Source: a phage
Direction: 5' to 3' (one strand)
Sequence record: NC_100372.1
DNA length: 64,000 nucleotides
Below are positions 1 through 60,544 of this stretch, in pieces; the stretch's first letter is position 1, and each line of letters opens with the position of its first letter. A model generated the notes under the pieces. That model was given only the letters and a program-made list of their open reading frames with translations. It made no database searches and was not told the DNA's origin. The position numbers and the translations under genes were made by a program.

Positions 1-1983
1 TTATTTGATGTTATTCTTTGTATCAATCAGTTCACGGTATTCAATCATAGCAGGAGTGTCCCAATATTTCAAGCCTACATGCTTCAAAAGTGGATATTTC
101 TTTTCCAATCTTGCAATATAGGCCTTCCCGCACTTAACCCGGTTGGCGATTAAGATTTTGGCACGATGATTTAGCTCACCGTACTTCCACGTGGTGCTAC
201 CTTCCCACTTGTGGAAATGTGGCCGATAACTTCCAAAATCCTGCATGGGGATAATTTTACCTAACTGTCTGTACAGGCTGTCATATGAAGTTTCATTTGC
301 TGCGCGAGTTAGTAAGAATTTCCAAGCATCCTCTTTCAACAAATGTTCCACATTCTTCTCTGTAACATATTGGCAATCAGGATCAGTCCAAAGCAGACGA
401 GATTCCGACACCAGGTACAGATCTTCCCCTTCAGGAATCTGGAGTGCCGAACGCACACGGTCATAATCTTGCTGGTAGATGTTGCTCATCTGCCCTAGCC
501 AACAACTTCCGCGTTGGATATCCCCCTCATACGGTATGCAGTGCTTAATCTTCCTGAACTCTGCCTTAGTAATACGCTCACGCCGGAAGTAACCATCCTT
601 CTCAAGTTTTTTAACCCAATAACCTGGTTCGTAACGGGTTTTGGTTTCACCTTTCTTCGTAGGTCGGCGTGGAAGCTCCGATAACAATTTGACCGTATCT
701 GCAAAAAACGGATGGTGTGCCGCCTCTTTAAACTCTTTCACCAGATCCGTGTTCCGGCAATAGAAAACATTGCGTCCGGTAATCTCGCTTAAGTAGTTAC
801 ATTTATTCCGGTTGTATTTTCCGTCTCCGTCGTTAAATACTAAATAGACTCCCCGTAGGAATTCTACCTTTCCGTAACAAGCGTAGCCTATGCGGCCTTT
901 GTTTAAGCCACCTGCGAAGATCTCGCAGTCTCCCAAATTCCCTAGCCCTGTTTCTTCCCAGCGGTCATACATAAAATTCTTACCGAAGATGTGCCCGAAC
1001 ACTCCGCTGTTCTTCATCATCTCGCGTGCTTCTGAGGATGTTTTTGCTGTCTCCAATTCTGCAACAACTTCTGCTCCACGAAGGCGAATGCCTTCTTTGA
1101 CAAAAGCTTCCAAACGCTCTTGGAATCCACCATCGTCGTGACCTTCTATGGTCCATTCACGCCCTGGGTTAATATTGCAATCTCCGATAGGGATCTCTAC
1201 ACAAATTGCAGGATAATCTGTTAGTGTCTCCAGGAACTTAGAACGGTAAGGTTGGTGACCCATTACCACACGACTCTCGTCAGAGCTGGTATATCCTTTC
1301 AGGATGGTCATCTTCCAACCATCTTTTTCATAATAATACTGCGCCTCTACTTTGTCTCCCTCCAGCATCTTGCTCGTCATCGGATCGGTGACAGTGAACG
1401 GAAATTTTGCATAGCGCAGGCATGATGCAATAGCAGTGCGATATTTCAGAACATGCTCTTTCTTAACATGAAACTGAACTTTTACCCCGTTGTGATCTTC
1501 AGTCTTCCGCTCACGGATCTTGGTGACATTTGGGATACCCTGGTCCAAGAACAATAGGTATGTGCTTTCCACACCGTTGTGCACACTGATTACATCGAAA
1601 GTGTCCACCATGCTGAACGGGGCCTTTGAACCAACACCTTTATTGCCTACCAGAGCGTTGCTGTTGCGCTTGGTTGACTCACCGAGGTTCATGAAAGTGT
1701 TACGGACCATCTCTTCTGACATGCCTAATCCAACGTCCTGCACAAAGAAGTATGGTTCAAGGTCTGTAGGAGAGTGAATGATGATCGGTACATCACCTCG
1801 TCCAGACTCAACATGGGAGTCCACAGCATTGAAGATTGGTTCACGGCAGCTTGCCAGTACCTTATCTTCATAAATCCCTTTGATGATTAGCCCAAAAGTC
1901 TCTTTGTTCAGAGAAATTGATCCCCTGGTTACCTCCATATTCCCAGTTAGCACCGCTTTAGTTTCATTGCTGTTTACAATCAT
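1..1983 (-). CDS. GHKL (Bergerat-fold) ATPase domain protein, possibly rIIA-like
   Basis: 660 aa ORF. N-terminal third carries GHKL motifs in order: E-x3-NAxD (REPIFNAVDS), DxGxG (QDVGLGM), GxxGxG (GNKGVGSKA). C-terminal two thirds not recognised. Stop TAA at 1-3; start ATG overlaps upstream gene stop (ATGA). Confidence 0.5.
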   Translation of the reverse strand: MIVNSNETKAVLTGNMEVTRGSISLNKETFGLIIKGIYEDKVLASCREPIFNAVDSHVESGRGDVPIIIHSPTDLEPYFFVQDVGLGMSEEMVRNTFMNLGESTKRNSNALVGNKGVGSKAPFSMVDTFDVISVHNGVESTYLLFLDQGIPNVTKIRERKTEDHNGVKVQFHVKKEHVLKYRTAIASCLRYAKFPFTVTDPMTSKMLEGDKVEAQYYYEKDGWKMTILKGYTSSDESRVVMGHQPYRSKFLETLTDYPAICVEIPIGDCNINPGREWTIEGHDDGGFQERLEAFVKEGIRLRGAEVVAELETAKTSSEAREMMKNSGVFGHIFGKNFMYDRWEETGLGNLGDCEIFAGGLNKGRIGYACYGKVEFLRGVYLVFNDGDGKYNRNKCNYLSEITGRNVFYCRNTDLVKEFKEAAHHPFFADTVKLLSELPRRPTKKGETKTRYEPGYWVKKLEKDGYFRRERITKAEFRKIKHCIPYEGDIQRGSCWLGQMSNIYQQDYDRVRSALQIPEGEDLYLVSESRLLWTDPDCQYVTEKNVEHLLKEDAWKFLLTRAANETSYDSLYRQLGKIIPMQDFGSYRPHFHKWEGSTTWKYGELNHRAKILIANRVKCGKAYIARLEKKYPLLKHVGLKYWDTPAMIEYRELIDTKNNIK

Positions 1984-2480
1984 TTATTGCGCTCCTTGTA
2001 GTAGATATGGCTCCCGAATTGAGCTGTCCTCTGCATCTTTTTTGCCCATTTCGGTCGCACTTTTGTTGTATGGTAGTGTGTTGCTCCACCTGTTATATCC
2101 ATAGCCATGTATGCAACATGGTTGTTATTATAGACCTTTAGAAGCATCTTTGCAAGACTTTTAGCGTGATCCCATGAATCTTTTTCTGTCACCTTAAAAG
2201 TTTTGCCGTGGTTTGTCCACGAAAACTGGTTAGGTTGGTAGACAATCTTTCTTATAGTGTCTGGGTATTTGGGGTGAGATTTCCTGTTTAGTGTGGCAAA
2301 CCCAGATGCCAGCATACCCATCGTGCCATCCCCTCTAGCCTCCCTGTAGATATTGCATGCCAGAATGTTTTCCTTAGTATCCGACGGCTTGCAGGTGTGA
2401 TATACTTTTTGTTTTGGTGCTGCAACAACAGGCAGCGATAAAAATGCGCTCAAAATAATAGCAAAGATCTTAGTTTTCAC
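1980..2480 (-). CDS. secreted cell-wall hydrolase, SleB/CwlJ-like (Hydrolase_2-type) domain
   Basis: 166 aa. N-terminal signal-peptide-like segment (MKTKIFAIILSAFLSLPVVAAP), then NIYREARG motif typical of SleB/CwlJ-type hydrolases. GTG start with SD TGGAG 5 nt upstream; 4-nt overlap with downstream GHKL gene. Confidence 0.55.
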   Translation of the reverse strand: MKTKIFAIILSAFLSLPVVAAPKQKVYHTCKPSDTKENILACNIYREARGDGTMGMLASGFATLNRKSHPKYPDTIRKIVYQPNQFSWTNHGKTFKVTEKDSWDHAKSLAKMLLKVYNNNHVAYMAMDITGGATHYHTTKVRPKWAKKMQRTAQFGSHIYYKERNK

Positions 2481-2490
2481 AATAGCTCCA

Positions 2491-2516
2491 AATAGAAAAT
2501 CCCCGCCGAAGCGGGG
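2491..2516 (-). terminator. intrinsic terminator-like hairpin (RNA CCCCGC-UUCG-GCGGGG then U-rich tract)
   Basis: Perfect 6-bp GC stem with UUCG tetraloop on the minus-strand transcript followed by AUUUUCUAUUU; lies between stop of 2530..2910 and the RBS of 1980..2480. Confidence 0.5.
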
Positions 2517-2529
2517 TGTGTCTTAGAAA

Positions 2530-2910
2530 TTAATCGTAGTGTGCCAAAATCTCTCCATCGTTGCAAGTCCCCTCTACGAAGTTGTGAAGATTCATGCATT
2601 CATCTTGATAGAAGAATTTACCGCTTTTCAGCCGTAGACCAAACAACTCCGCATCTCCACGATGGCAAGCCTCTACAAGTTCATAGATTTCATACGGTAA
2701 CTCTCCATCGTCATGGAAGAACCCCGCTTTATCGTTGACATAGATGAAGAAATAGTCACTGCTGTCGCAAGCGTCCAGTATTTTAAACCAGATTTCATCC
2801 ACATCTTTTTCTCGGATATCGATCACACAAGTGGAGCTGCATTCGTACTCCTTCTCCGGCTCCTCGGTCAATACCACCAAGTAGTTTCCCCGCTTACCTA
2901 CTTTAGCCAT
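2530..2910 (-). CDS. hypothetical protein
   Basis: 126 aa ORF, tightly packed in the minus-strand early operon; no recognisable motif. Confidence 0.45.
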   Translation of the reverse strand: MAKVGKRGNYLVVLTEEPEKEYECSSTCVIDIREKDVDEIWFKILDACDSSDYFFIYVNDKAGFFHDDGELPYEIYELVEACHRGDAELFGLRLKSGKFFYQDECMNLHNFVEGTCNDGEILAHYD

Positions 2911-2919
2911 ACAACCTCC

Positions 2920-4104
2920 TCAAGCTTTAGCTAAAATGGCGCTAAACTCTTCACCAAACTCTTTTACAATCTTCATCAGGTTTGGGTATGCTTTGATCAG
3001 CTGAGCAACGATCTTGTCCCTGCCTTTACCAATAAGTAAGGCATTTCCTAAGGCGTTAGGTTTCATCATCGCCATAAAGACTGAGAATACAAAGTCTCGG
3101 TTCTCATCCTTGAAATTTTCCCAAAGGAAATCAAGGAAGTTTGCCACACAGCTGACAAGATCTTCGTCGGAGATACTTGCATTTTCCATCATATTACGAA
3201 TAGCGATACAACCTTCTGACCCCAGAATCCACAAGATGTCTGGCTGCTTAGGACCTACATATTCTTTGCAGCCTCCTGCCATAATCCGACCGATTTCTGG
3301 CAAGTTTCGTTTCTTGGTGTGGTAGGTCCAAATTTCTACCGCTGCAGTGTGACCAATTGCACCTTGTAGAAGGACACGGGCCATAGCGTCAGAAATAATA
3401 CCGCTGTCAAAATCGTGCAGGATGTCAGATGCAGCAACCCAAGATCGCGGTGTGGCAAAAGATGGACAATTAATCTCAGCCATGGCCTCATAATTATCAA
3501 TGGCTGATGGGACTCTTTTCAGATATCCAATTACAGAGGAGTGAACCCCATTAAGGAATGCGTAGTCCTCAATAAACACCTCTGCATTGCTTGTAACTTC
3601 TACAATAATAAAGCGGTTAGCTAGAGGAGCTTCGAGCGCCGAAAGAACAGCACCATCTGTAGCACGGTTACCTGCAGCTACAAAAACAGAACCCTTAGGA
3701 AATGCATAGGTACCGCACTTGTGGTCGAGCATAATTTGCATTGCAACCTTCTGCAGGTAGTTATCCGCATGAGTAAGCTCGTCTAGAAAGATAATTCCGC
3801 TCCAGTCCGGATCTGCAGGCCAAAATTCTGGAATTGCAAACACTGTACGTGTAGTCCCATCCGACTCCACAGGGATAGGCAGTCCAGATAAGTCAGCAGG
3901 ATCTTTATCTGACAACCGCACGTCAACCAGGTTGTCATCTCGCTCACCGAACATATTATCAGCAATCTGCTTCATCACCTGGCTCTTCCCCACACCCATC
4001 GGTCCTAAAATCAGGACAGATCGATTATGACGCTGGGCAAATTGAATAATAGCTGGCAACTCGCGGACAGTGATTTGACCACTTTCGAATACGTTTCTTG
4101 ACAT
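2920..4104 (-). CDS. MoxR/CobS-like AAA+ ATPase
   Basis: 394 aa. Walker A GPMGVGKS, Walker B-like IIFLDELT; size and layout fit MoxR/CobS-family AAA+ proteins. Confidence 0.65.
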   Translation of the reverse strand: MSRNVFESGQITVRELPAIIQFAQRHNRSVLILGPMGVGKSQVMKQIADNMFGERDDNLVDVRLSDKDPADLSGLPIPVESDGTTRTVFAIPEFWPADPDWSGIIFLDELTHADNYLQKVAMQIMLDHKCGTYAFPKGSVFVAAGNRATDGAVLSALEAPLANRFIIVEVTSNAEVFIEDYAFLNGVHSSVIGYLKRVPSAIDNYEAMAEINCPSFATPRSWVAASDILHDFDSGIISDAMARVLLQGAIGHTAAVEIWTYHTKKRNLPEIGRIMAGGCKEYVGPKQPDILWILGSEGCIAIRNMMENASISDEDLVSCVANFLDFLWENFKDENRDFVFSVFMAMMKPNALGNALLIGKGRDKIVAQLIKAYPNLMKIVKEFGEEFSAILAKA

Positions 4105-4373
4105 TAGTAAAAGTCCTCTACTTGTGTGTAAGTGTTTTCAAAGTTTTCCAAAACAGACATCACATCGGATCTGTCAATATCATACGCAACTCTCCAGCCA
4201 TATGCAACCCTTTCTGCTGTTGCCTCTTCTGGCGCTAGTCGTCTGCTGGCATAAAAGAGTGTTGGAGTACACTTTCTTGCTTGCCCTCTAACTTTCCCAT
4301 AATAATATCTGTGAATATCTTTGTCAAAATTTAATTCTTTTTCTGCACGAAGTTCGTACTGCTGGTATAACAT
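4104..4373 (-). CDS. hypothetical protein
   Basis: 89 aa ORF, 1-nt overlap with downstream ATPase gene, same operon. Confidence 0.4.
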   Translation of the reverse strand: MLYQQYELRAEKELNFDKDIHRYYYGKVRGQARKCTPTLFYASRRLAPEEATAERVAYGWRVAYDIDRSDVMSVLENFENTYTQVEDFY

Positions 4374-4417: not shown

Positions 4418-4798
4418 CTAAAATGCAGTCCGAATCCAGACAAGGTTCTTATCTGCCCAATCATAGAGGCAAGTCATTGCACTATTGAATTGCTCACACG
4501 GAGGATAATCTTCTTCCATCTTGCGCATAGCAGAGCCTTGTGGGTAAAGCTCCCGTGCTGCAAACCACGCGTCGTAGTCATCAACGGTATCGAAGTAGTA
4601 TACAACCTCCTCCAACTCAGGATCGAACTTTGAACTATCAGGATCCAGCTGTTCAGGGAACTTGGAGCGTAACTTGCCAGCCACAATACTTGCCAACTCG
4701 CTAACATGCTTGTTGTCCCACTCTACCAGTTTCCCGTCTTCAGTTATGCGTCCTAACCACTGATCATGAAGGTCAACTGTTGTCTTCCACTGGGCCAT
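4418..4798 (-). CDS. hypothetical protein
   Basis: 126 aa ORF, acidic, in operon context. Confidence 0.45.
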   Translation of the reverse strand: MAQWKTTVDLHDQWLGRITEDGKLVEWDNKHVSELASIVAGKLRSKFPEQLDPDSSKFDPELEEVVYYFDTVDDYDAWFAARELYPQGSAMRKMEEDYPPCEQFNSAMTCLYDWADKNLVWIRTAF

Positions 4799-6601: not shown

Positions 6602-6641
6602 GAGTAAGTGCTCCTATGTTAGTTTTCTTTTGAATGGGTGC

Positions 6642-6670
6642 ACTATATCTGGGATTTAGAGTAAAGTCAA
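6642..6670 (-). promoter_or_regulatory. sigma70-like promoter, minus strand (TTGACT-17-TATAGT)
   Basis: On minus strand: -35 TTGACT (plus 6665-6670), 17-nt spacer, -10 TATAGT (plus 6642-6647); positioned upstream of 5702..6601. Confidence 0.5.
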
Positions 6671-6683
6671 CACGTTTTTGAGG

Positions 6684-6712
6684 TTGACATCTACCCAGGC
6701 GCTTGGTAAGAT
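6684..6712 (+). promoter_or_regulatory. sigma70-like promoter, plus strand (TTGACA-17-TAAGAT)
   Basis: -35 TTGACA 6684-6689, 17-nt spacer, -10 TAAGAT 6707-6712; back-to-back with the minus-strand promoter. Confidence 0.5.
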
Positions 6713-6743
6713 TTCTCCACCTACAGAGAACAAGAGACAACTC

Positions 6744-7725: not shown

Positions 7726-7742
7726 AGGGGCCATTGGCCCCT
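7726..7742 (+). other. GC palindrome / stem-loop (GGGGCC-ATT-GGCCCC)
   Basis: Perfect 6-bp GC stem between 6744..7721 and 7755..9215; no clean U-tract follows. Near-identical to the stem of the terminator at 13437-13452. Confidence 0.35.
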
Positions 7743-7754
7743 TCTGGAGTTTTA

Positions 7755-9215
7755 ATGGATAGCAGAAGTTCAGAAATCATTACCGCACAAAAAGATGATG
7801 CCTTGCGAATGCTGCAGGCCGCTCGCATGTATCTTCTTGAAAAGCTGCCGTTTTATGGCACACTGTTGTCAGGGTTGCAGTTCGTAGAAAACCACACATG
7901 GTGCTCCACTATGGCAACAGACCATAAACGCATCTACTACAGCCCTGAGTTCATTATGGGGTTGGCAGATGAGCGTAAAACCATTCTTAAAGCATCTCTG
8001 ACTGACAAGCAGTTTGAGATGGCTGAGGTTTTCTATTCCCCAAAATCTGTGAAAGAGGTGGCATTTCTTCTGTCACATGAGGTGGGGCATATTATCTGTG
8101 ATCATCTGGTCCGTGGTAAAAGCTTTGAGCCGGAACTGTTCAATATTGCTTGTGATCACGTTATCAACACAGGTCTTGTGGTTGACTTTAGCAAGCCTCC
8201 TTGTGTTTTCTTCCCGAAGGGGAAAAGCACTGAGTTCGTAAAAGGTAAGCCTTTTGGCTTCTTAGCTAATTGCTACTGCGACATGAAGTTTCATGGATGG
8301 ATTGCTGAGAACGTCTATGCAGTTCTTGATAAACAAAGAGATCAGAATGGCGGTAAAAGTAAGAACGGTAAAGGTGAGAACTCCCAAGGAGATAAACGAC
8401 AAACCGATGATCACATGAGCGGGAACGGTGGCACTAGTGATGATCTTGGAAAGGCTATGGGGTATGATCAGCCGCAACCAGTAATCAGTCAATCTGATAA
8501 AGATCAGGCCATGCAGGATTCTGGTGACATGTTGGAAGCAGCAATGCAAGCTTCAGGAGGTCGTTGCCCCGAGGCGGTGCGCGAGTTTGTCAAAAACAGA
8601 GGCAAGCCTGTAATCAATTATATAGATATTATTAAGCAACGTATGTTATCTAAAAGAAAGGCTGAGTTAACCTACAGAAAACCTGGTCGCCGATCTGGGT
8701 CTTTGACCACCACAATGCGAAAAGTTGGAGCTATAAACAAGAATCAACACGTTATTGTTCCTGGTCGTAATCCGGAAAACACTATAGATATTGTAGTGGC
8801 TTTAGACGTTTCTGGGTCGATCTCACAAAGAACTTTAAAGAAAATGTTCAATGAGATCACCGGGTTGTGCAATCTGTATAAAGAGTTTAAGGTTACGATG
8901 TTCTGTTGGTCAACCGAGGTTGGAGAGGTTAAAGTATACACTCGCGGTAACATCGATGAGATGATCAACTATGAGGTCCACTCAACATGGGGCACAACAG
9001 CCGCCTGCGTGTTCGAGTATCTAGATGCTAACATACCGAATGCAAAAGATGTCATCGTCCTTACCGACCTCTACTTTGAGCATAACTTTGAACAAAAGGC
9101 TGTTGACAACAAGTGGAAAAAGTACGATACTTTATGGGTTCTCACCGAAGGGTATAATAAAAATTATATCCCGAGCTTTGGGAAAACTGTGGAATTAATC
9201 GAGTACGCTAAGTAA
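7755..9215 (+). CDS. vWA-domain protein with N-terminal HExxH metallopeptidase-like domain
   Basis: Track start 7734 is TTG; ATG at 7755 has SD GGAG 5 nt upstream. HEVGH motif (LLSHEVGHIICDH) in N-terminal half; MIDAS-like DxSGS (IVVALDVSGSIS) in C-terminal half; Gly/Asp/Ser-rich linker between. Confidence 0.6.
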   Translation: MDSRSSEIITAQKDDALRMLQAARMYLLEKLPFYGTLLSGLQFVENHTWCSTMATDHKRIYYSPEFIMGLADERKTILKASLTDKQFEMAEVFYSPKSVKEVAFLLSHEVGHIICDHLVRGKSFEPELFNIACDHVINTGLVVDFSKPPCVFFPKGKSTEFVKGKPFGFLANCYCDMKFHGWIAENVYAVLDKQRDQNGGKSKNGKGENSQGDKRQTDDHMSGNGGTSDDLGKAMGYDQPQPVISQSDKDQAMQDSGDMLEAAMQASGGRCPEAVREFVKNRGKPVINYIDIIKQRMLSKRKAELTYRKPGRRSGSLTTTMRKVGAINKNQHVIVPGRNPENTIDIVVALDVSGSISQRTLKKMFNEITGLCNLYKEFKVTMFCWSTEVGEVKVYTRGNIDEMINYEVHSTWGTTAACVFEYLDANIPNAKDVIVLTDLYFEHNFEQKAVDNKWKKYDTLWVLTEGYNKNYIPSFGKTVELIEYAK

Positions 9216-58314: not shown

Positions 58315-59862
58315 TTAGATAAAACGCTTGAACATAGAAGGTGATGAGATTGATGGAATCACACAAGGCAGCGCTACCTCCTCTTTCTCCAGGAAATTAA
58401 TCGCAGAAGCTACACAGTCGGCCCAGTCGTCTTTTCTGTTAAATGTTGATCTTTCCCCGTTGAACTTTTCAAGTTCAGTCAGAAATGCTTCCAGAGTGTC
58501 AGGATGGAAACTGGATTTTACAATCCTCACCATTCCTTGTTGGGCAAGATTGGCAAAAGGTGAGAACCTTGTCAGTTTAGATTTGTTGGAAGGCATTGGA
58601 TCTTCTTCAACCCTGAACCCTTCGGCGAGCAAAGATCTGGACGAGGTTAAGAACTCACTCTTACCTGCCTGACCGGGGTCTACAGAAAATACGATTATGC
58701 AATCATCTCCATCAAACTGCGCCTGTTTCCTGATGATCACATCTCGTTCCCCAGCCTTTTTACAGAACTTTCCTTCCAGACCTGTGGAATACCTACCGTC
58801 ATCCACGTTCTCAGGACAATAATCCCCGGACAGGTAATAAAAGCCGTCGCTATCTTTACTTACCTTAACACTGGCAGTAAAGTCAGGAAATTTATTACCG
58901 GAAGTTCTCTCGGTTCCTGCCTTATCCCATGCCCTGCAAGATACTGATCCAAGAGGTACTCTATCGGCATCCCGAAGGAAAGATCTTTGGAAATAGTTTG
59001 CACCCTCAGGTTTGGCAAACCAGTTGCCATGAAGAAGCTGGGCTTTTTCAAGCTCGGGTAGACCTTCAAGGAAAGCAAGGTATTCCGGGTTGTCTCTCAA
59101 ACAGACAGGATTATCGAAAATTGTTGCGCCTATAAACGAGAATGACAACGGTCTTGGCTTGATCTCCACACCCAGTCCGTTAACCGTGGTGTATTTCTCT
59201 ATTAACTCTTCTTTAGAGTCTCCCCAAATAAATTCACCGTCGCGTCGGATAAAATATCTTTTCTTACCACATTTCTCCGGATCTGGATACCCTTCATCGT
59301 CCAACCACCACCTAACCAGTTTGGCAAGCATGTGTTCTGAGTCGGGGTTACAGCTGATAACCATTCTTGATGGATACTTTGACTGAGATCGCAGACGAGA
59401 CATCAAATAGTCTATCTGCTCCCATTCGAATTGCGTGCCTTCATCGAAGCAAACCATGGTGTACTCAAGGCCTTGATGGTTAAGCTTATCTTGGACATAC
59501 TCCATGTGGCAGTATTTTACAACGGCCCCTTTTTTGCTCCTGTCCCACTTGCCAGTGCTCGGATCAAACCGTGGAAAAATAAACTTATGATCCTTCTCTC
59601 TGAACTTTGGTTTAATGTTTTCAGGCAGATCACTGTAGATAGCTACTGCTTTAGGCCATAGCCCACCCTCACCTTCCAACTGGGGAGTTGTTCTTCGGAA
59701 CATAACCACAGAGCTGTGCGGGTCATCAATAATTTTAAGCGGCATTAGCTGCAAGAGGAACGACTTGCCAGACCCAGCTGCACCTCCGATCACCAAAATA
59801 TCTGCATCGTTCTCTAGGATCATCTTCTGCTTTTCAGAACACGGTCCGTAAATCTTAGACAT
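58315..59862 (-). CDS. terL: terminase large subunit
   Basis: 515 aa; Walker A VIGGAAGSGKS, Walker B-like MVCFDEGTQ, C-terminal acidic nuclease-like residues; start overlaps o-spanin stop (TAATG). Confidence 0.7.
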   Translation of the reverse strand: MSKIYGPCSEKQKMILENDADILVIGGAAGSGKSFLLQLMPLKIIDDPHSSVVMFRRTTPQLEGEGGLWPKAVAIYSDLPENIKPKFREKDHKFIFPRFDPSTGKWDRSKKGAVVKYCHMEYVQDKLNHQGLEYTMVCFDEGTQFEWEQIDYLMSRLRSQSKYPSRMVISCNPDSEHMLAKLVRWWLDDEGYPDPEKCGKKRYFIRRDGEFIWGDSKEELIEKYTTVNGLGVEIKPRPLSFSFIGATIFDNPVCLRDNPEYLAFLEGLPELEKAQLLHGNWFAKPEGANYFQRSFLRDADRVPLGSVSCRAWDKAGTERTSGNKFPDFTASVKVSKDSDGFYYLSGDYCPENVDDGRYSTGLEGKFCKKAGERDVIIRKQAQFDGDDCIIVFSVDPGQAGKSEFLTSSRSLLAEGFRVEEDPMPSNKSKLTRFSPFANLAQQGMVRIVKSSFHPDTLEAFLTELEKFNGERSTFNRKDDWADCVASAINFLEKEEVALPCVIPSISSPSMFKRFI

Positions 59863-60149
59863 TAACCTCTCTCCTTTGGAAACAGTGTTCTTATATAGTC
59901 TTGCAAAATGATCAATTTAGCTCTATCATTACTACAAGACAGGTTATTATCCCTCATAATGCCAGAATTCACCGCATCTGGCGCACCTTTCTTCAAAGGG
60001 ATAGCTTTAGCAGGTGGTTTCATAGCACCCTCGGGAGGTTTAACAATCAACCTTCCTACATCCGGAGGGTCAATCTTGTATTCTCTCTCAACACTGGTTG
60101 CACACCCACACAATAACAAGCACAAAACAACCAGTGCAGTAACTCTCAT
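59862..60149 (-). CDS. o-spanin-like outer-membrane lipoprotein
   Basis: 95 aa; lipoprotein signal with lipobox LLLCGC, proline-rich mature part (KPPEGAMKPPAKAIPLKKGAPD). Confidence 0.5.
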   Translation of the reverse strand: MRVTALVVLCLLLCGCATSVEREYKIDPPDVGRLIVKPPEGAMKPPAKAIPLKKGAPDAVNSGIMRDNNLSCSNDRAKLIILQDYIRTLFPKERG

Positions 60150-60544
60150 CGAACCTCCTGATTGATACTCTCATTATAAATATCTATTAGCTGATCAGGA
60201 AGTGTTGACTTCTTACCTTCAGGAGATTGGAGGTAGATAATCTGCTTTTCTTTACCTGCCTTCTCAGCCATATTTAATTTATCCTGTAGATCAGAAAGAG
60301 ATTTTTCAAGGTTTTTAACCTCCTCTGCGTGGCCCATTTTAATTTTGTCGGCTTGCTTTTGTTGTTGGTCAAGGATCCGTTCCCACTTCAACTCTGTTGC
60401 TGACACACCTTCCTGATAAGCATCATTGAGCTTAGAGTTAAACCAATACACGGCCCCAAGATAAGCCATGCCTATAGCCGCTGCAAAAACTAAACCTTTT
60501 ATGATCCCTCTGTATTTACTCATCAATGTTAAGACTGAAATCAT
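60146..60544 (-). CDS. i-spanin-like protein
   Basis: 132 aa; N-terminal TM helix (GLVFAAAIGMAYLGAVYWF), coiled-coil periplasmic domain; 4-nt overlap with o-spanin gene. Confidence 0.5.
   Translation of the reverse strand: MISVLTLMSKYRGIIKGLVFAAAIGMAYLGAVYWFNSKLNDAYQEGVSATELKWERILDQQQKQADKIKMGHAEEVKNLEKSLSDLQDKLNMAEKAGKEKQIIYLQSPEGKKSTLPDQLIDIYNESINQEVR

What the first reader, a model, noticed from the sequence alone, without database searches (positions are those of the whole stretch)
1..2520. GHKL ATPase gene translationally coupled to a signal-peptide cell-wall hydrolase gene that begins directly behind a terminator hairpin
The SleB/CwlJ-like hydrolase (1980..2480) carries a cleavable-looking signal peptide and sits in the early region, far from the spanin genes at about 60 kb. 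Its RBS starts only about 20 nt after a UUCG-tetraloop terminator, so its expression, and that of the ATGA-coupled GHKL ATPase downstream, may depend on terminator readthrough. If the GHKL protein is rIIA-like, coupling a lysis-timing factor to a secreted peptidoglycan hydrolase would be notable.
Basis: partly seen in the sequence, partly recalled or inferred. Interest (0 to 1): 0.4.

Follow-up and report, generated by a model that had tools for sequence, protein, structure and literature searches.

The report
rV5 phage secreted hydrolase-rIIA genes
This is the already published start of an rV5-type coliphage genome, where a leaky-looking terminator hairpin is followed by a secreted SleB-type cell-wall hydrolase gene that overlaps the rIIA gene by four bases; it is real but ordinary for this phage group.

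Summary
There is a 6-bp G+C hairpin with a UUCG loop (2516-2501) and a U-rich tail. Next come GGAG and a GTG start (2480) for a 166-aa Hydrolase_2 (SleB/CwlJ-type) protein with a classical Sec signal peptide. An ATGA overlap (1983-1980) leads into a 660-aa GHKL protein that is a full-length rIIA homologue.

The window is an rV5-like Vequintavirus, with 121 phage records at 90-99% identity. The rV5 genome paper (PMC3606486) lists the same genes at the same coordinates and the same terminator (t003, 2490..2516). A later paper (PMC7344957) noted the signal peptide on the Vequintavirinae SleB-like protein.

None of the arrangements is unusual in this window. Fifteen of 60 same-strand gene junctions overlap by 1 or 4 nt, and four other terminator hairpins lie 17-33 nt before the next start codon. 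rIIA has its own strong ribosome-binding site. SleB-rIIA adjacency is limited to a few related genera, where a small 2-TM ORF usually lies between the two genes. The group's main endolysin is a separate lysozyme.

One small new point emerged. A hairpin, U-tract and weak start codon upstream of this hydrolase recur in four lineages with different stem sequences, which suggests dosage limitation of a toxic exported enzyme.

Verdict: confirmed, known, low interest.

The parts
2530..2910 (-). Upstream gene (rV5 gene 3 homologue, 126 aa, acidic, function unknown). It is the last gene before the hairpin.
   Evidence: ORF. phrog_12370 at 9.4e-89. Listed as rV5 gene 3 at 2530..2910, homologous to T5.083.
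2490..2516 (-). Intrinsic-terminator-like hairpin CCCCGC-UUCG-GCGGGG (2516-2501) with tail AUUUUCUAUUU. This is rV5 terminator t003.
   Evidence: Published as t003, 2490..2516, -16.0 kcal/mol. No changes in 2516-2486 in a relative that differs at 12% of positions in the surrounding 660 nt. Hairpins at the same position but with different stem sequences occur in K54_rec4-like, SSE121 and Certrevirus phages.
2486..2489 (-). Shine-Dalgarno GGAG of the hydrolase gene, 5 nt before the GTG start.
   Evidence: Read directly from the sequence. ATTT(G/A)GGAG is conserved across genera.
1980..2480 (-). Gene for an exported SleB/CwlJ-type (Hydrolase_2) peptidoglycan hydrolase, 166 aa, GTG start.
   Evidence: Pfam PF07486 at 2.1e-19. 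PDB 4f55 and 4fet by sequence and by fold. E47 invariant in homologues. Listed as rV5 gene 2 'cell wall hydrolase' at 1980..2480.
2421..2480 (-). Codons 1-20, the predicted Sec signal peptide MKTKIFAIILSAFLSLPVVA. The likely signal peptidase I site is VVA|AP.
   Evidence: Two Lys in the n-region, a 15-16 residue I/L/F/V-rich h-region, and small residues at -3/-1. Second most hydrophobic N-terminus of 69 window proteins. Low pLDDT for residues 1-20. Equivalent signal peptides in homologues from 5 lineages. A signal peptide was reported for the CB7 homologue. SignalP was not available.
2127..2155 (-). Sigma-70-like site TTGCAA-17-TATAAT inside the hydrolase coding sequence. It is a candidate independent promoter for rIIA and is unproven.
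   Evidence: 10 of 12 matches. Both hexamers unchanged in 6 of 6 rV5-like sequences. It could be a chance match in A+T-rich coding DNA.
1992..1997 (-). Shine-Dalgarno AAGGAG of rIIA, 8 nt before its ATG, inside the 3' end of the hydrolase gene.
   Evidence: Sequence. Conserved in 6 of 6 rV5-like sequences.
1980..1983 (-). ATGA overlap: the rIIA start ATG (1983-1981) and the hydrolase stop TGA (1982-1980).
1..1983 (-). rIIA gene, 660 aa. N-terminal GHKL ATPase domain with a variable C-terminal region.
   Evidence: phrog_612 at 1.7e-123 over residues 1-658. HATPase_c_3 at 2e-8. tblastn hits to rIIA of T4-like, KVP40 and other phages. Listed as rV5 gene 1 at 1..1983. rIIB follows 10 nt downstream in relatives.
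6642..6670 (-). Sigma-70-like promoter TTGACT-17-TATAGT (rV5 P010) at the head of the leftward operon that runs through the hairpin.
   Evidence: Published as P010, 6636..6681. Proposed transcription unit 10-1-238-164.

Best explanation
The region is the promoter-distal part of the leftward early operon of an rV5-like Vequintavirus.

Transcription starts at the sigma-70 promoter near 6670-6642 and runs through genes 10 to 3. It then meets a short intrinsic terminator (t003: 6 G-C pairs, UUCG loop, a U-tract that starts with A and is interrupted by C and A). This terminator stops only part of the polymerases (inferred).

Readthrough transcripts carry the hydrolase gene, rIIA, rIIB and the replication genes beyond. 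The hydrolase is translated from a 4-nt SD and a GTG start, so at low level. It is exported by Sec and cleaved after Ala20. In the periplasm it acts as a SleB-type lytic transglycosylase and serves as an accessory murein hydrolase (inferred). The main lysis machinery is separate: a cytoplasmic lysozyme (LysECP26 type) with a neighbouring small membrane protein, and the spanins.

The hairpin plus weak start most likely keeps the dose of a toxic exported enzyme low.

rIIA is a separate function. It is a GHKL ATPase that works with rIIB and is linked to counter-defence and membrane function. Its ATGA overlap with the hydrolase gene reflects genome compaction after loss of the small 2-TM ORF found between the two genes in sister genera. 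It is not a dedicated regulatory link, because rIIA can initiate from its own AAGGAG site.
For: **Identity of the phage and operon layout.**

**Terminator.**
-, and the ARNold prediction published for rV5.
- It is one of 13 similar hairpins on this strand. Four others also lie 17-33 nt before the next start codon without an intervening promoter.
- Hairpin, U-tract and RBS recur directly before the homologous gene in K54_rec4-like, SSE121 and Certrevirus phages. Their stems differ (CCCCGC, AGCCCC(G), AAAGGCUCAG) and fold at -11 to -18 kcal/mol.

**Weak start codons.** GTG in rV5-likes, TTG in K54_rec4-like phages, SSE121 and phi92, and no canonical start at all in two IMG/VR contigs.

**Enzyme.**
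- Pfam, PDB sequence matches and fold.
- Invariant E47, aligned to the SleB catalytic Glu.

**Export.**. The literature reports a signal peptide and toxicity on expression for the CB7 homologue.

**Separate main endolysin.** PMC9728275 describes LysECP26. The lysozyme gene lies at ECP26 87949..88419, followed by a small membrane protein. rV5 Gp89 is the lysin.

**Not a virion protein.** rV5 gene 2 carries no 'MS evidence' label.

**rIIA.**, with its own SD.

**Small 2-TM ORF.** It lies between the hydrolase gene and rIIA in sister genera and is absent here.
Against: - There is no transcript or protein data for this operon, so the efficiency of t003 and the timing of expression are unknown.
- A sigma-70-like site inside the hydrolase gene (2155-2127) could make rIIA independent of readthrough. 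An unrecognised phage-specific promoter upstream of the hairpin cannot be excluded.
- In phi92 the homologous gene has a terminator and then its own promoter, so readthrough is not the universal solution.
- Muralytic activity on E. coli peptidoglycan is untested. Bacillus SleB needs muramic-delta-lactam (my recollection), which E. coli lacks.
- Signal peptide cleavage was judged by rules, not by SignalP or experiment.
- The 'accessory lysis' role is only one of several possible periplasmic roles.
Confidence: 0.55

Rival explanations
1. The exported hydrolase is a secretory endolysin of a second, holin-independent or pinholin-type lysis module. In this reading the ancestral pair was the hydrolase plus the small 2-TM protein. 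The enzyme accumulates in the periplasm in a restrained state and is released when the membrane is de-energised. rIIA/B, which are linked to membrane energetics, would then influence when it fires, so the linkage to rIIA is functional.
For: - A small 2-TM ORF directly follows the hydrolase gene in K54_rec4-like, SSE121 and Certrevirus phages. In CB7 it was proposed as a class II holin.
- Other Hydrolase_2 proteins act as phage endolysins, for example Vp670 CwlQ with HolA (homology, H87).
- The CR3 homologue has been implicated in lysis, and the CB7 homologue is toxic on expression.
- Hydrolase, (small ORF), rIIA and rIIB are syntenic in three genus-level groups.
Against: - The 2-TM ORF is absent from this phage.
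- The hydrolase keeps its position in Certrevirus, which has no rIIA/B, and in phi92.
- T5-like phages carry signal-peptide homologues without rIIA nearby.
- None of 71 more distant IMG/VR loci has rIIA within 3 kb.
- rV5-likes have a complete conventional set: an active lysozyme (PMC9728275) and spanins.
- The gene sits in an operon with replication genes driven by a sigma-70 promoter. That would place a lytic enzyme in the periplasm early in infection.
Confidence: 0.15
2. The hydrolase has an early periplasmic role unrelated to lysis. Examples are local remodelling of peptidoglycan to protect the infected cell, exclusion of superinfecting phages, or altered release of muropeptides. The terminator and weak start codon tune it to a sub-lytic dose.
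For: - It lies in an early or replication-type operon in rV5-likes, in T5-like Stitch and in PAK_P3, away from the lysis genes.
- The dose-limiting features are conserved.
- A separate main endolysin exists.
Against: - There is no direct evidence for any such activity.
- The catalytic Glu and fold are those of a lytic enzyme.
- The CB7 homologue is toxic when expressed in E. coli, which fits simple muralytic action.
Confidence: 0.2
3. The hairpin is not mainly a terminator. It would act as an RNA-stability element: a 3' end protector for the upstream message after processing, or a 5' stem-loop of a transcript started just upstream. The hydrolase gene and rIIA would then be expressed from a promoter that simple consensus scans do not recognise.
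For: - Hairpins of the same style follow many highly expressed genes in the window, such as the major head gene at 53702-53679.
- A weak TTGGCA-16-TAAGAC site ends a few nt before the stem (read from the sequence).
- phi92 has a promoter between its terminator and the homologous gene.
Against: - The U-rich tail directly after the stem is conserved in all four lineages, as expected for an intrinsic terminator.
- The candidate upstream site matches only 8 of 12 consensus positions, and the -10 element matches 3 of 6.
- The rV5 authors found no promoter here.
Confidence: 0.1

Closest known systems
Escherichia phage rV5 genes 1-3 and terminator t003 (Kropinski et al. 2013, PMC3606486)
   Same: Coordinates and content are identical: rIIA 1..1983, cell wall hydrolase (PF07486) 1980..2480, gene 3 2530..2910, and t003 2490..2516 with the same sequence. 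The window is 94-99% identical to rV5-like genomes.
   Different: The window is not rV5 itself. Its large terminase gene is uninterrupted (58315..59862), and its best match is phage S127 BCL3 at 98.7%. The rV5 paper did not discuss the hydrolase's signal peptide or any role in lysis.
Vequintavirinae SleB-like protein CB7_83 of Pectobacterium phage CB7 (Buttimer et al. 2020, PMC7344957)
   Same: It is a homologous Hydrolase_2 protein with a predicted signal peptide, present in all Vequintavirinae genera, at the same genomic position upstream of a helicase gene, and preceded by a hairpin. It was reported as toxic when expressed in E. coli.
   Different: In Certrevirus the gene starts with ATG and is followed by an overlapping 2-TM holin candidate, and there are no rIIA/B genes. 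Here the start is GTG, there is no 2-TM ORF, and the gene overlaps rIIA directly.
Bacillus SleB catalytic domain (PDB 4F55, 4FET), a germination-specific lytic transglycosylase
   Same: Same fold (TM-score 0.72-0.79 normalised to the target). The Y-x-E-[AS]-R-G motif is conserved, with E47 aligned to the catalytic Glu (the residue numbering Glu151/Glu157 is from my memory of Jing 2012 and Li 2012).
   Different: Sequence identity is only 20-24%. The phage protein lacks SleB's N-terminal peptidoglycan-binding domain. The host peptidoglycan has no muramic-delta-lactam, so substrate recognition must differ.
Sec-exported endolysins such as Lys44 of Oenococcus phage fOg44, and SAR endolysins such as P1 Lyz (from my own knowledge)
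   Same: These are muralytic enzymes that reach the cell wall compartment through the Sec system without a canonical holin.
   Different: The N-terminus here looks like a cleavable signal peptide, not a Gly/Ala-rich SAR anchor. The phage also has a conventional lysozyme. No lysis role has been shown.
T4 rIIA-rIIB
   Same: N-terminal GHKL ATPase domain, full-length PHROG match, and rIIB immediately downstream. In T4 these genes are also reached partly by readthrough from upstream early promoters (my own knowledge).
   Different: Identity to T4-like rIIA is about 29% and confined to the first ~190 residues. The C-terminal region is different, as is usual for the family (PMC7824862). T4 has no hydrolase gene upstream of rIIA.

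Membership tests
Hydrolase_2 (SleB/CwlJ) cell wall hydrolase family | Match to Pfam PF07486 above the gathering score | tested here: met
   70.4 bits against a cut-off of 27, covering residues 51-161 and profile positions 2-100 of 100.
Hydrolase_2 (SleB/CwlJ) cell wall hydrolase family | SleB catalytic-domain fold | tested here: met
   AF2 model with pLDDT 87.8. The only significant Foldseek PDB hits are 4f55 and 4fet, with probability 1.00 and TM-score to target 0.72-0.79.
Hydrolase_2 (SleB/CwlJ) cell wall hydrolase family | Catalytic glutamate conserved | tested here: met
   E47 is invariant in 10 homologues. It aligns with the Glu of AVYGESRGE in 4f55 and 4fet. That this Glu is the catalytic residue is from my memory of the SleB structure papers, supported in general terms by PMC12331253.
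Hydrolase_2 (SleB/CwlJ) cell wall hydrolase family | Peptidoglycan-cleaving activity | not testable with these tools
   This needs a zymogram or sacculus digestion. The only indirect evidence is the reported toxicity of the CB7 homologue.
SleB orthologue (spore cortex-lytic enzyme) | N-terminal three-helix peptidoglycan-binding domain plus C-terminal catalytic domain | tested here: not met
   The protein has 166 aa. Only residues 38-160 align to the catalytic domain, and residues 1-20 form a signal peptide. There is no PG_binding domain hit.
Sec-type cleavable signal peptide | Positive n-region, 7-16 residue hydrophobic h-region, small residues at -3/-1 | tested here: met
   MKTK / IFAIILSAFLSLPVV / V18-V19-A20|A21-P22. 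Cleavage after A21 is unlikely because Pro would be at +1. Hydrophobicity ranks 2nd of 69 proteins. The pattern is conserved in homologues. This is rule-based only; SignalP was not available.
Sec-type cleavable signal peptide | Export and cleavage in vivo | not testable with these tools
   This needs PhoA fusions or N-terminal sequencing.
SAR (signal-anchor-release) endolysin | N-terminal transmembrane segment rich in Gly/Ala/Ser, without a signal peptidase site | tested here: not met
   The h-region is dominated by I/L/F/V, with 4 of 15 small residues. It is too short for a stable transmembrane helix, and a V-x-A site follows it (translation).
rIIA | Full-length similarity to rIIA family profiles, with an N-terminal GHKL ATPase domain | tested here: met
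   phrog_612 at 1.7e-123, residues 1-658 against profile positions 1-724 of 725. HATPase_c_3 at 2e-8. tblastn matches to annotated rIIA genes of T4-like, KVP40 and other phages.
rIIA | rIIB gene adjacent | tested here: met
   rIIB lies outside the window. In S127 BCL3 and ECP26 it starts 10 nt after rIIA and matches phrog_609 at 1.6e-61.
rIIA | Protection against RexAB-type exclusion, or an r plaque phenotype | not testable with these tools
   This is a genetic test only.
Intrinsic (rho-independent) terminator | G+C-rich stem-loop immediately followed by a U-tract | tested here: met
   6 G-C pairs, a UUCG loop and the tail AUUUUCUAUUU. ARNold gave -16.0 kcal/mol for rV5. The short stem and interrupted tail suggest partial efficiency, which is inference.
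Intrinsic (rho-independent) terminator | Termination of transcripts in vivo | not testable with these tools
   No transcriptome of a Vequintavirinae phage was found.
Translational coupling | Overlapping stop and start codons | tested here: met
   ATGA at 1983-1980, conserved in 6 of 6 rV5-like sequences.
Translational coupling | Downstream gene lacks an independent, accessible ribosome-binding site | tested here: not met
   AAGGAG lies at 1997-1992, 8 nt before the ATG, so independent initiation is possible. Real dependence needs an experiment.

The most novel reading that the evidence does not exclude
The conserved trio of terminator hairpin, short SD and weak start codon (GTG, TTG, or no canonical start) would be a dedicated dose-limiting device. 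It would let large virulent coliphages (rV5-like phages; perhaps T5-like and phi92-like phages by other means) place a sub-lytic amount of a Sec-exported SleB-type transglycosylase in the periplasm early in infection. The enzyme's role would differ from end-point lysis, for example priming the sacculus, excluding superinfection or modulating the envelope. In Vequintavirus it would be functionally tied to rIIA/B.
Probability: 0.15. Interest if true: 0.45.

Novelty: already known. Interest (0 to 1): 0.12.

Why it matters
It matters little as a discovery. The genes, their overlap and the terminator were annotated at these coordinates in the 2013 rV5 genome paper, and the signal peptide on this protein family was noted in 2020.

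A modest open question remains. Several large virulent phages of Gram-negative hosts carry an exported SleB-type hydrolase among early or replication genes, in addition to a conventional endolysin, and the reason is unknown. These phages include rV5-like, T5-like, phi92-like and possibly PAK_P3-like groups. The conserved expression-damping signals seen here suggest that the dose of the enzyme is under selection. A knockout in an rV5-like phage would be easy to make and could reveal an accessory lysis or envelope-remodelling role. Such a role could bear on the use of these phages and their lysins against E. coli O157.

Tried and rejected
- **RNAalifold on the hairpin regions of 8 phages.** It gave no consensus structure because MAFFT could not put stems with different loop lengths in register. 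I folded each sequence on its own instead.
- **SPOR domain in rIIB.** An annotation note in S127 BCL3 suggested one. Pfam gives only a sub-threshold partial hit (19.3 bits against 21, residues 8-42). I rejected this as evidence of a peptidoglycan link.
- **Relocated small 2-TM ORF.** I looked for a copy elsewhere in the window and in the fetched parts of relatives and found none.
- **Disulfide as evidence of periplasmic location.** Only C30 is specific to the Vequintavirinae clade, while C42 belongs to the general family motif.
- **Transcriptome of a Vequintavirinae phage.** A literature search found none.
- **SleB structure papers.** They are not held in the library, so the catalytic residue numbering rests on my memory.
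- **Protein homologue search.** The word-index search returned only 10 homologues. The IMG/VR scan gave the wider sample.
- **Virion-associated lysin.** Rejected because of the signal peptide and because rV5 gene 2 has no MS evidence.
- **Catalytically dead binding protein.** Rejected because E47 and the surrounding motif are invariant.


Full report
**What is there.** All genes in the first 6.6 kb of the window are on the minus strand. Read 5' to 3' on that strand, the order is as follows.
- A 126-aa ORF ends at 2530.
- Thirteen nt later comes the hairpin CCCCGC-UUCG-GCGGGG (2516-2501), followed by AUUUUCUAUUU.
- The tail runs into GGAG (2489-2486), a 5-nt spacer and a GTG start at 2480.
- That ORF (1980..2480, 166 aa) ends in a TGA that overlaps the ATG of the next ORF (ATGA, 1983-1980).
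- The next ORF is 660 aa long and ends at position 1 of the window.

The promoter and terminator scan finds the hairpin on both strands.

**Which genome this is.** Megablast of 1-4200 finds 121 phage records at 90-99% identity, nearly all of them rV5-like Escherichia phages of the genus Vequintavirus. The best match is S127 BCL3 at 98.7%. These genomes are conventionally opened at the rIIA gene (PMC4591320), which explains why the window starts exactly at the rIIA stop codon.

The rV5 genome paper lists the same features at the same coordinates in its supplementary tables (PMC3606486):
- gene 1, rIIA, 1..1983;
- gene 2, cell wall hydrolase (PF07486), 1980..2480;
- gene 3, 2530..2910;
- a rho-independent terminator t003, 2490..2516, with the sequence seen here and -16.0 kcal/mol by ARNold/MFOLD.

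The same paper proposes that genes 10-1-238-164 form one transcription unit starting at the sigma-70 promoter P010 (6636..6681). It lists no other promoter before gene 1. I find that promoter at 6670-6642, facing a divergent partner at 6684-6712.

**The hydrolase.**
- Pfam gives Hydrolase_2 at 70.4 bits against a cut-off of 27.
- The only PDB sequence hits are the SleB catalytic domains 4f55 and 4fet. E47 of the motif IYREARGD aligns with the Glu of AVYGESRGE. From memory of the SleB structure papers, that Glu is the catalytic residue. PMC12331253 confirms that a catalytic glutamate is essential for SleB lytic transglycosylase activity.
- E47 is invariant in the ten homologues aligned.
- An AlphaFold2 model has mean pLDDT 87.8, with only residues 1-20 at low confidence. 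Its only significant Foldseek matches in the PDB are the same two SleB structures, with TM-scores of 0.72-0.79 normalised to the target.
- The protein lacks SleB's N-terminal peptidoglycan-binding domain. It belongs to the catalytic-domain family but is not a SleB orthologue.

**Signal peptide.** The N-terminus is MKTK-IFAIILSAFLSLPVV-A|AP. It has a basic n-region, a 15-residue strongly hydrophobic core and a V-x-A site. Cleavage one residue later is unlikely because Pro would then be at +1. Of 69 putative proteins in the window it has the second most hydrophobic N-terminus, after the o-spanin lipoprotein.

Homologues carry equivalent signal peptides despite low sequence identity in that segment. 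They come from Klebsiella phage K54_rec4, Salmonella phage SSE121, a Pectobacterium Certrevirus, phi92 and the T5-like phage Stitch. Other phage homologues have lipoprotein signals, SAR-like anchors or no extension at all.

The core is not Gly/Ala-rich, so it does not look like a SAR anchor. SignalP could not be run. Buttimer et al. reported a signal peptide for the CB7 homologue, found homologues in all Vequintavirinae genera, and observed toxicity on expression in E. coli (PMC7344957).

**The GHKL protein.**
- It matches PHROG 612 (RIIA) over its whole length at 1.7e-123.
- It has an N-terminal HATPase_c_3 domain.
- By tblastn it hits annotated rIIA genes of T4-like phages, KVP40 and many others, mostly over the first ~190-350 residues. 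This fits the description of rIIA as a GHKL domain with a variable C-terminal part (PMC7824862).
- In close relatives rIIB follows 10 nt downstream, then helicases, methyltransferases, a primase/helicase and the DNA polymerase.

**Are the arrangements special?** They are not.
- Of 60 same-strand junctions between putative genes in the window, six overlap by 4 nt and nine by 1 nt.
- A strict scan finds 13 G+C-rich hairpins with U-tails on the minus strand. Eleven of them lie 3-49 nt after a stop codon, and several have UUCG loops.
- Four others lie only 17-33 nt before the next start codon with no room for a promoter: 47770-47737, 19145-19124, 58265-58244 and 53702-53679. The rest are followed by promoter-like sequences.
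- 'A gene beginning directly behind a terminator' is thus a recurrent layout in this phage.
- rIIA has its own good ribosome-binding site, AAGGAG, 8 nt before its ATG (1997-1992). It is conserved in all six rV5-like sequences examined. The overlap therefore does not by itself imply dependence on hydrolase translation.
- A sigma-70-like site (TTGCAA-17-TATAAT, 2155-2127) inside the hydrolase gene has unchanged hexamers in all six sequences. It could give rIIA a transcript of its own, but it could equally be a chance match in A+T-rich coding DNA.

**Comparative context.** I fetched the homologous region from four annotated phages and from 80 IMG/VR contigs.

An rIIA homologue lies downstream of the hydrolase gene only in the closest groups, those with at least 51% hydrolase identity. 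These are the rV5-likes, SSE121 (Seunavirus) and K54_rec4-like Klebsiella phages. None of the 71 more distant loci has one within 3 kb.

In SSE121 and the K54_rec4-like phages a 51-53 aa ORF with two hydrophobic segments (phrog_24442) lies between the hydrolase gene and rIIA. In Certrevirus a 62-aa membrane protein (phrog_10205) overlaps the hydrolase stop codon, and rIIA/B are absent. That protein is the holin candidate of Buttimer et al.. No homologue of these small proteins is found in the window or in the fetched parts of rV5-like genomes.

The simplest reading is that the direct ATGA junction arose in Vequintavirus when the small ORF was lost. T5-like and PAK_P3 phages also carry exported or membrane-anchored Hydrolase_2 proteins among early or replication genes, not in lysis cassettes.

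**Lysis genes of the group.** The experimentally characterised endolysin of rV5-like phages is a 156-aa lysozyme, LysECP26 (PMC9728275). It corresponds to rV5 Gp89. In ECP26 it lies at 87949..88419, which is outside this window, and a 68-aa membrane protein follows it. The spanin pair is at 59862..60544, next to the terminase gene. The SleB-like protein is thus an additional murein hydrolase. rV5 gene 2 has no mass-spectrometry evidence as a virion protein.

**One modest new point.** A hairpin, a U-tract, ATTT(G/A)GGAG and a start codon precede the hydrolase gene in four lineages whose stems have different sequences:

| Lineage | Stem | Distance from stem to start | Start codon |
|---|---|---|---|
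| rV5-like | CCCCGC / GCGGGG | 20 nt | GTG |
| K54_rec4-like | AGCCCC(G) / (U)GGGGCU | 20 nt | TTG |
| SSE121 | AGCCCC / GGGGCU, with a different loop | not measured | TTG |
| Certrevirus | AAAGGCUCAG / CUGGGCCUUU | not measured | ATG |

The hairpins fold at -11 to -18 kcal/mol.
- In an rV5-like contig that differs at 12% of positions in the surrounding 660 nt, the 31 nt from 2516 to 2486 are unchanged.
- Weak start codons are the rule. The table lists four lineages; phi92 also uses TTG, and two contigs have no ATG, GTG or TTG at all, where an ATC behind GGGAGG is the likely start.
- phi92 differs from the others: there a terminator is followed by a promoter before the gene.

Together with the reported toxicity of the CB7 homologue, this pattern suggests selection to keep expression of the exported enzyme low.

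**Most likely mechanism.** Host RNA polymerase starts at P010 and transcribes genes 10 to 3. The short terminator t003 has only six base pairs and a tail that begins with A and is interrupted, and it stops part of the transcripts. The remainder continue into the hydrolase gene, rIIA, rIIB and the replication genes, much as T4 delayed-early genes are reached by readthrough (my own knowledge).

The hydrolase is made at low level, exported by Sec, cleaved, and acts on the sacculus as an accessory lytic transglycosylase. rIIA/B act separately.

- **Shown here:** the sequence features, the homologies, the fold and the comparative conservation.
- **Inferred:** partial termination, early timing, export, cleavage, enzymatic activity and biological role.

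**Verdict.** The features are already in the literature for rV5 and its relatives. Interest is low.

Noticed in passing
window 2920-4104 (-) and 7734-9215 (+): A MoxR-type AAA+ ATPase gene and a DUF2201_N/DUF2201 gene (putative metallopeptidase plus VWA-like domain; E=1e-28 and 4e-11) lie on opposite sides of the divergent early promoter region at 6640-6715. MoxR ATPases normally work with VWA proteins. Some records label the second gene 'anti-sigma factor'.
   Followed up: partly
phage records found (e.g. MG065674.1 'Campylobacter phage A140'): Sixteen records named Campylobacter phage, with Campylobacter jejuni given as host, are 90-99% identical to this E. coli rV5-like sequence. Their hydrolase is 98.8% identical. 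This suggests mislabelled or contaminated deposits rather than a true host jump.
   Followed up: no
L011 and L012 (IMG/VR contigs), about 2985-3010: The hydrolase homologue has an intact N-terminal signal peptide reading frame but no ATG, GTG or TTG start. An ATC codon 5 nt after GGGAGG is the likely start, and a three-codon mini-ORF (ATG GGA GGT TAA) overlaps the SD.
   Followed up: partly
L005 4618-5001 (Klebsiella phage vB_Kpn_K54_rec4) and L006 (Salmonella phage SSE121): The annotated 'endolysin' in K54_rec4 is truncated at the N-terminus. The real ORF starts at a TTG at 4471 and includes the signal peptide, and an annotated 48-aa ORF overlaps it. In SSE121 the small 2-TM ORF between the hydrolase gene and rIIA is not annotated, and a T-run may hide a frameshift.
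   Followed up: partly
window 58315-59862 (-): The large terminase gene is uninterrupted (515 aa) in this window. In rV5 it is split by an HNH homing endonuclease, and in ECP26 by other endonuclease genes.
   Followed up: no
L001 7785-8990 (rIIB of S127 BCL3; outside the window): The N-terminus of rIIB gives a sub-threshold SPOR-domain hit (19.3 bits against a cut-off of 21, residues 8-42). This is probably the source of the 'SPOR domain-containing protein' note in that record. It is too weak to count as a peptidoglycan-binding domain.
   Followed up: partly
window 28655-28570, 34466-34390, 45370-45300, 22308-22250 (-): Several structural-gene hairpins are followed within 20-60 nt by the TGGTAAAAT-type motif that the rV5 authors called putative late promoters. 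These form terminator-promoter pairs between late genes.
   Followed up: no
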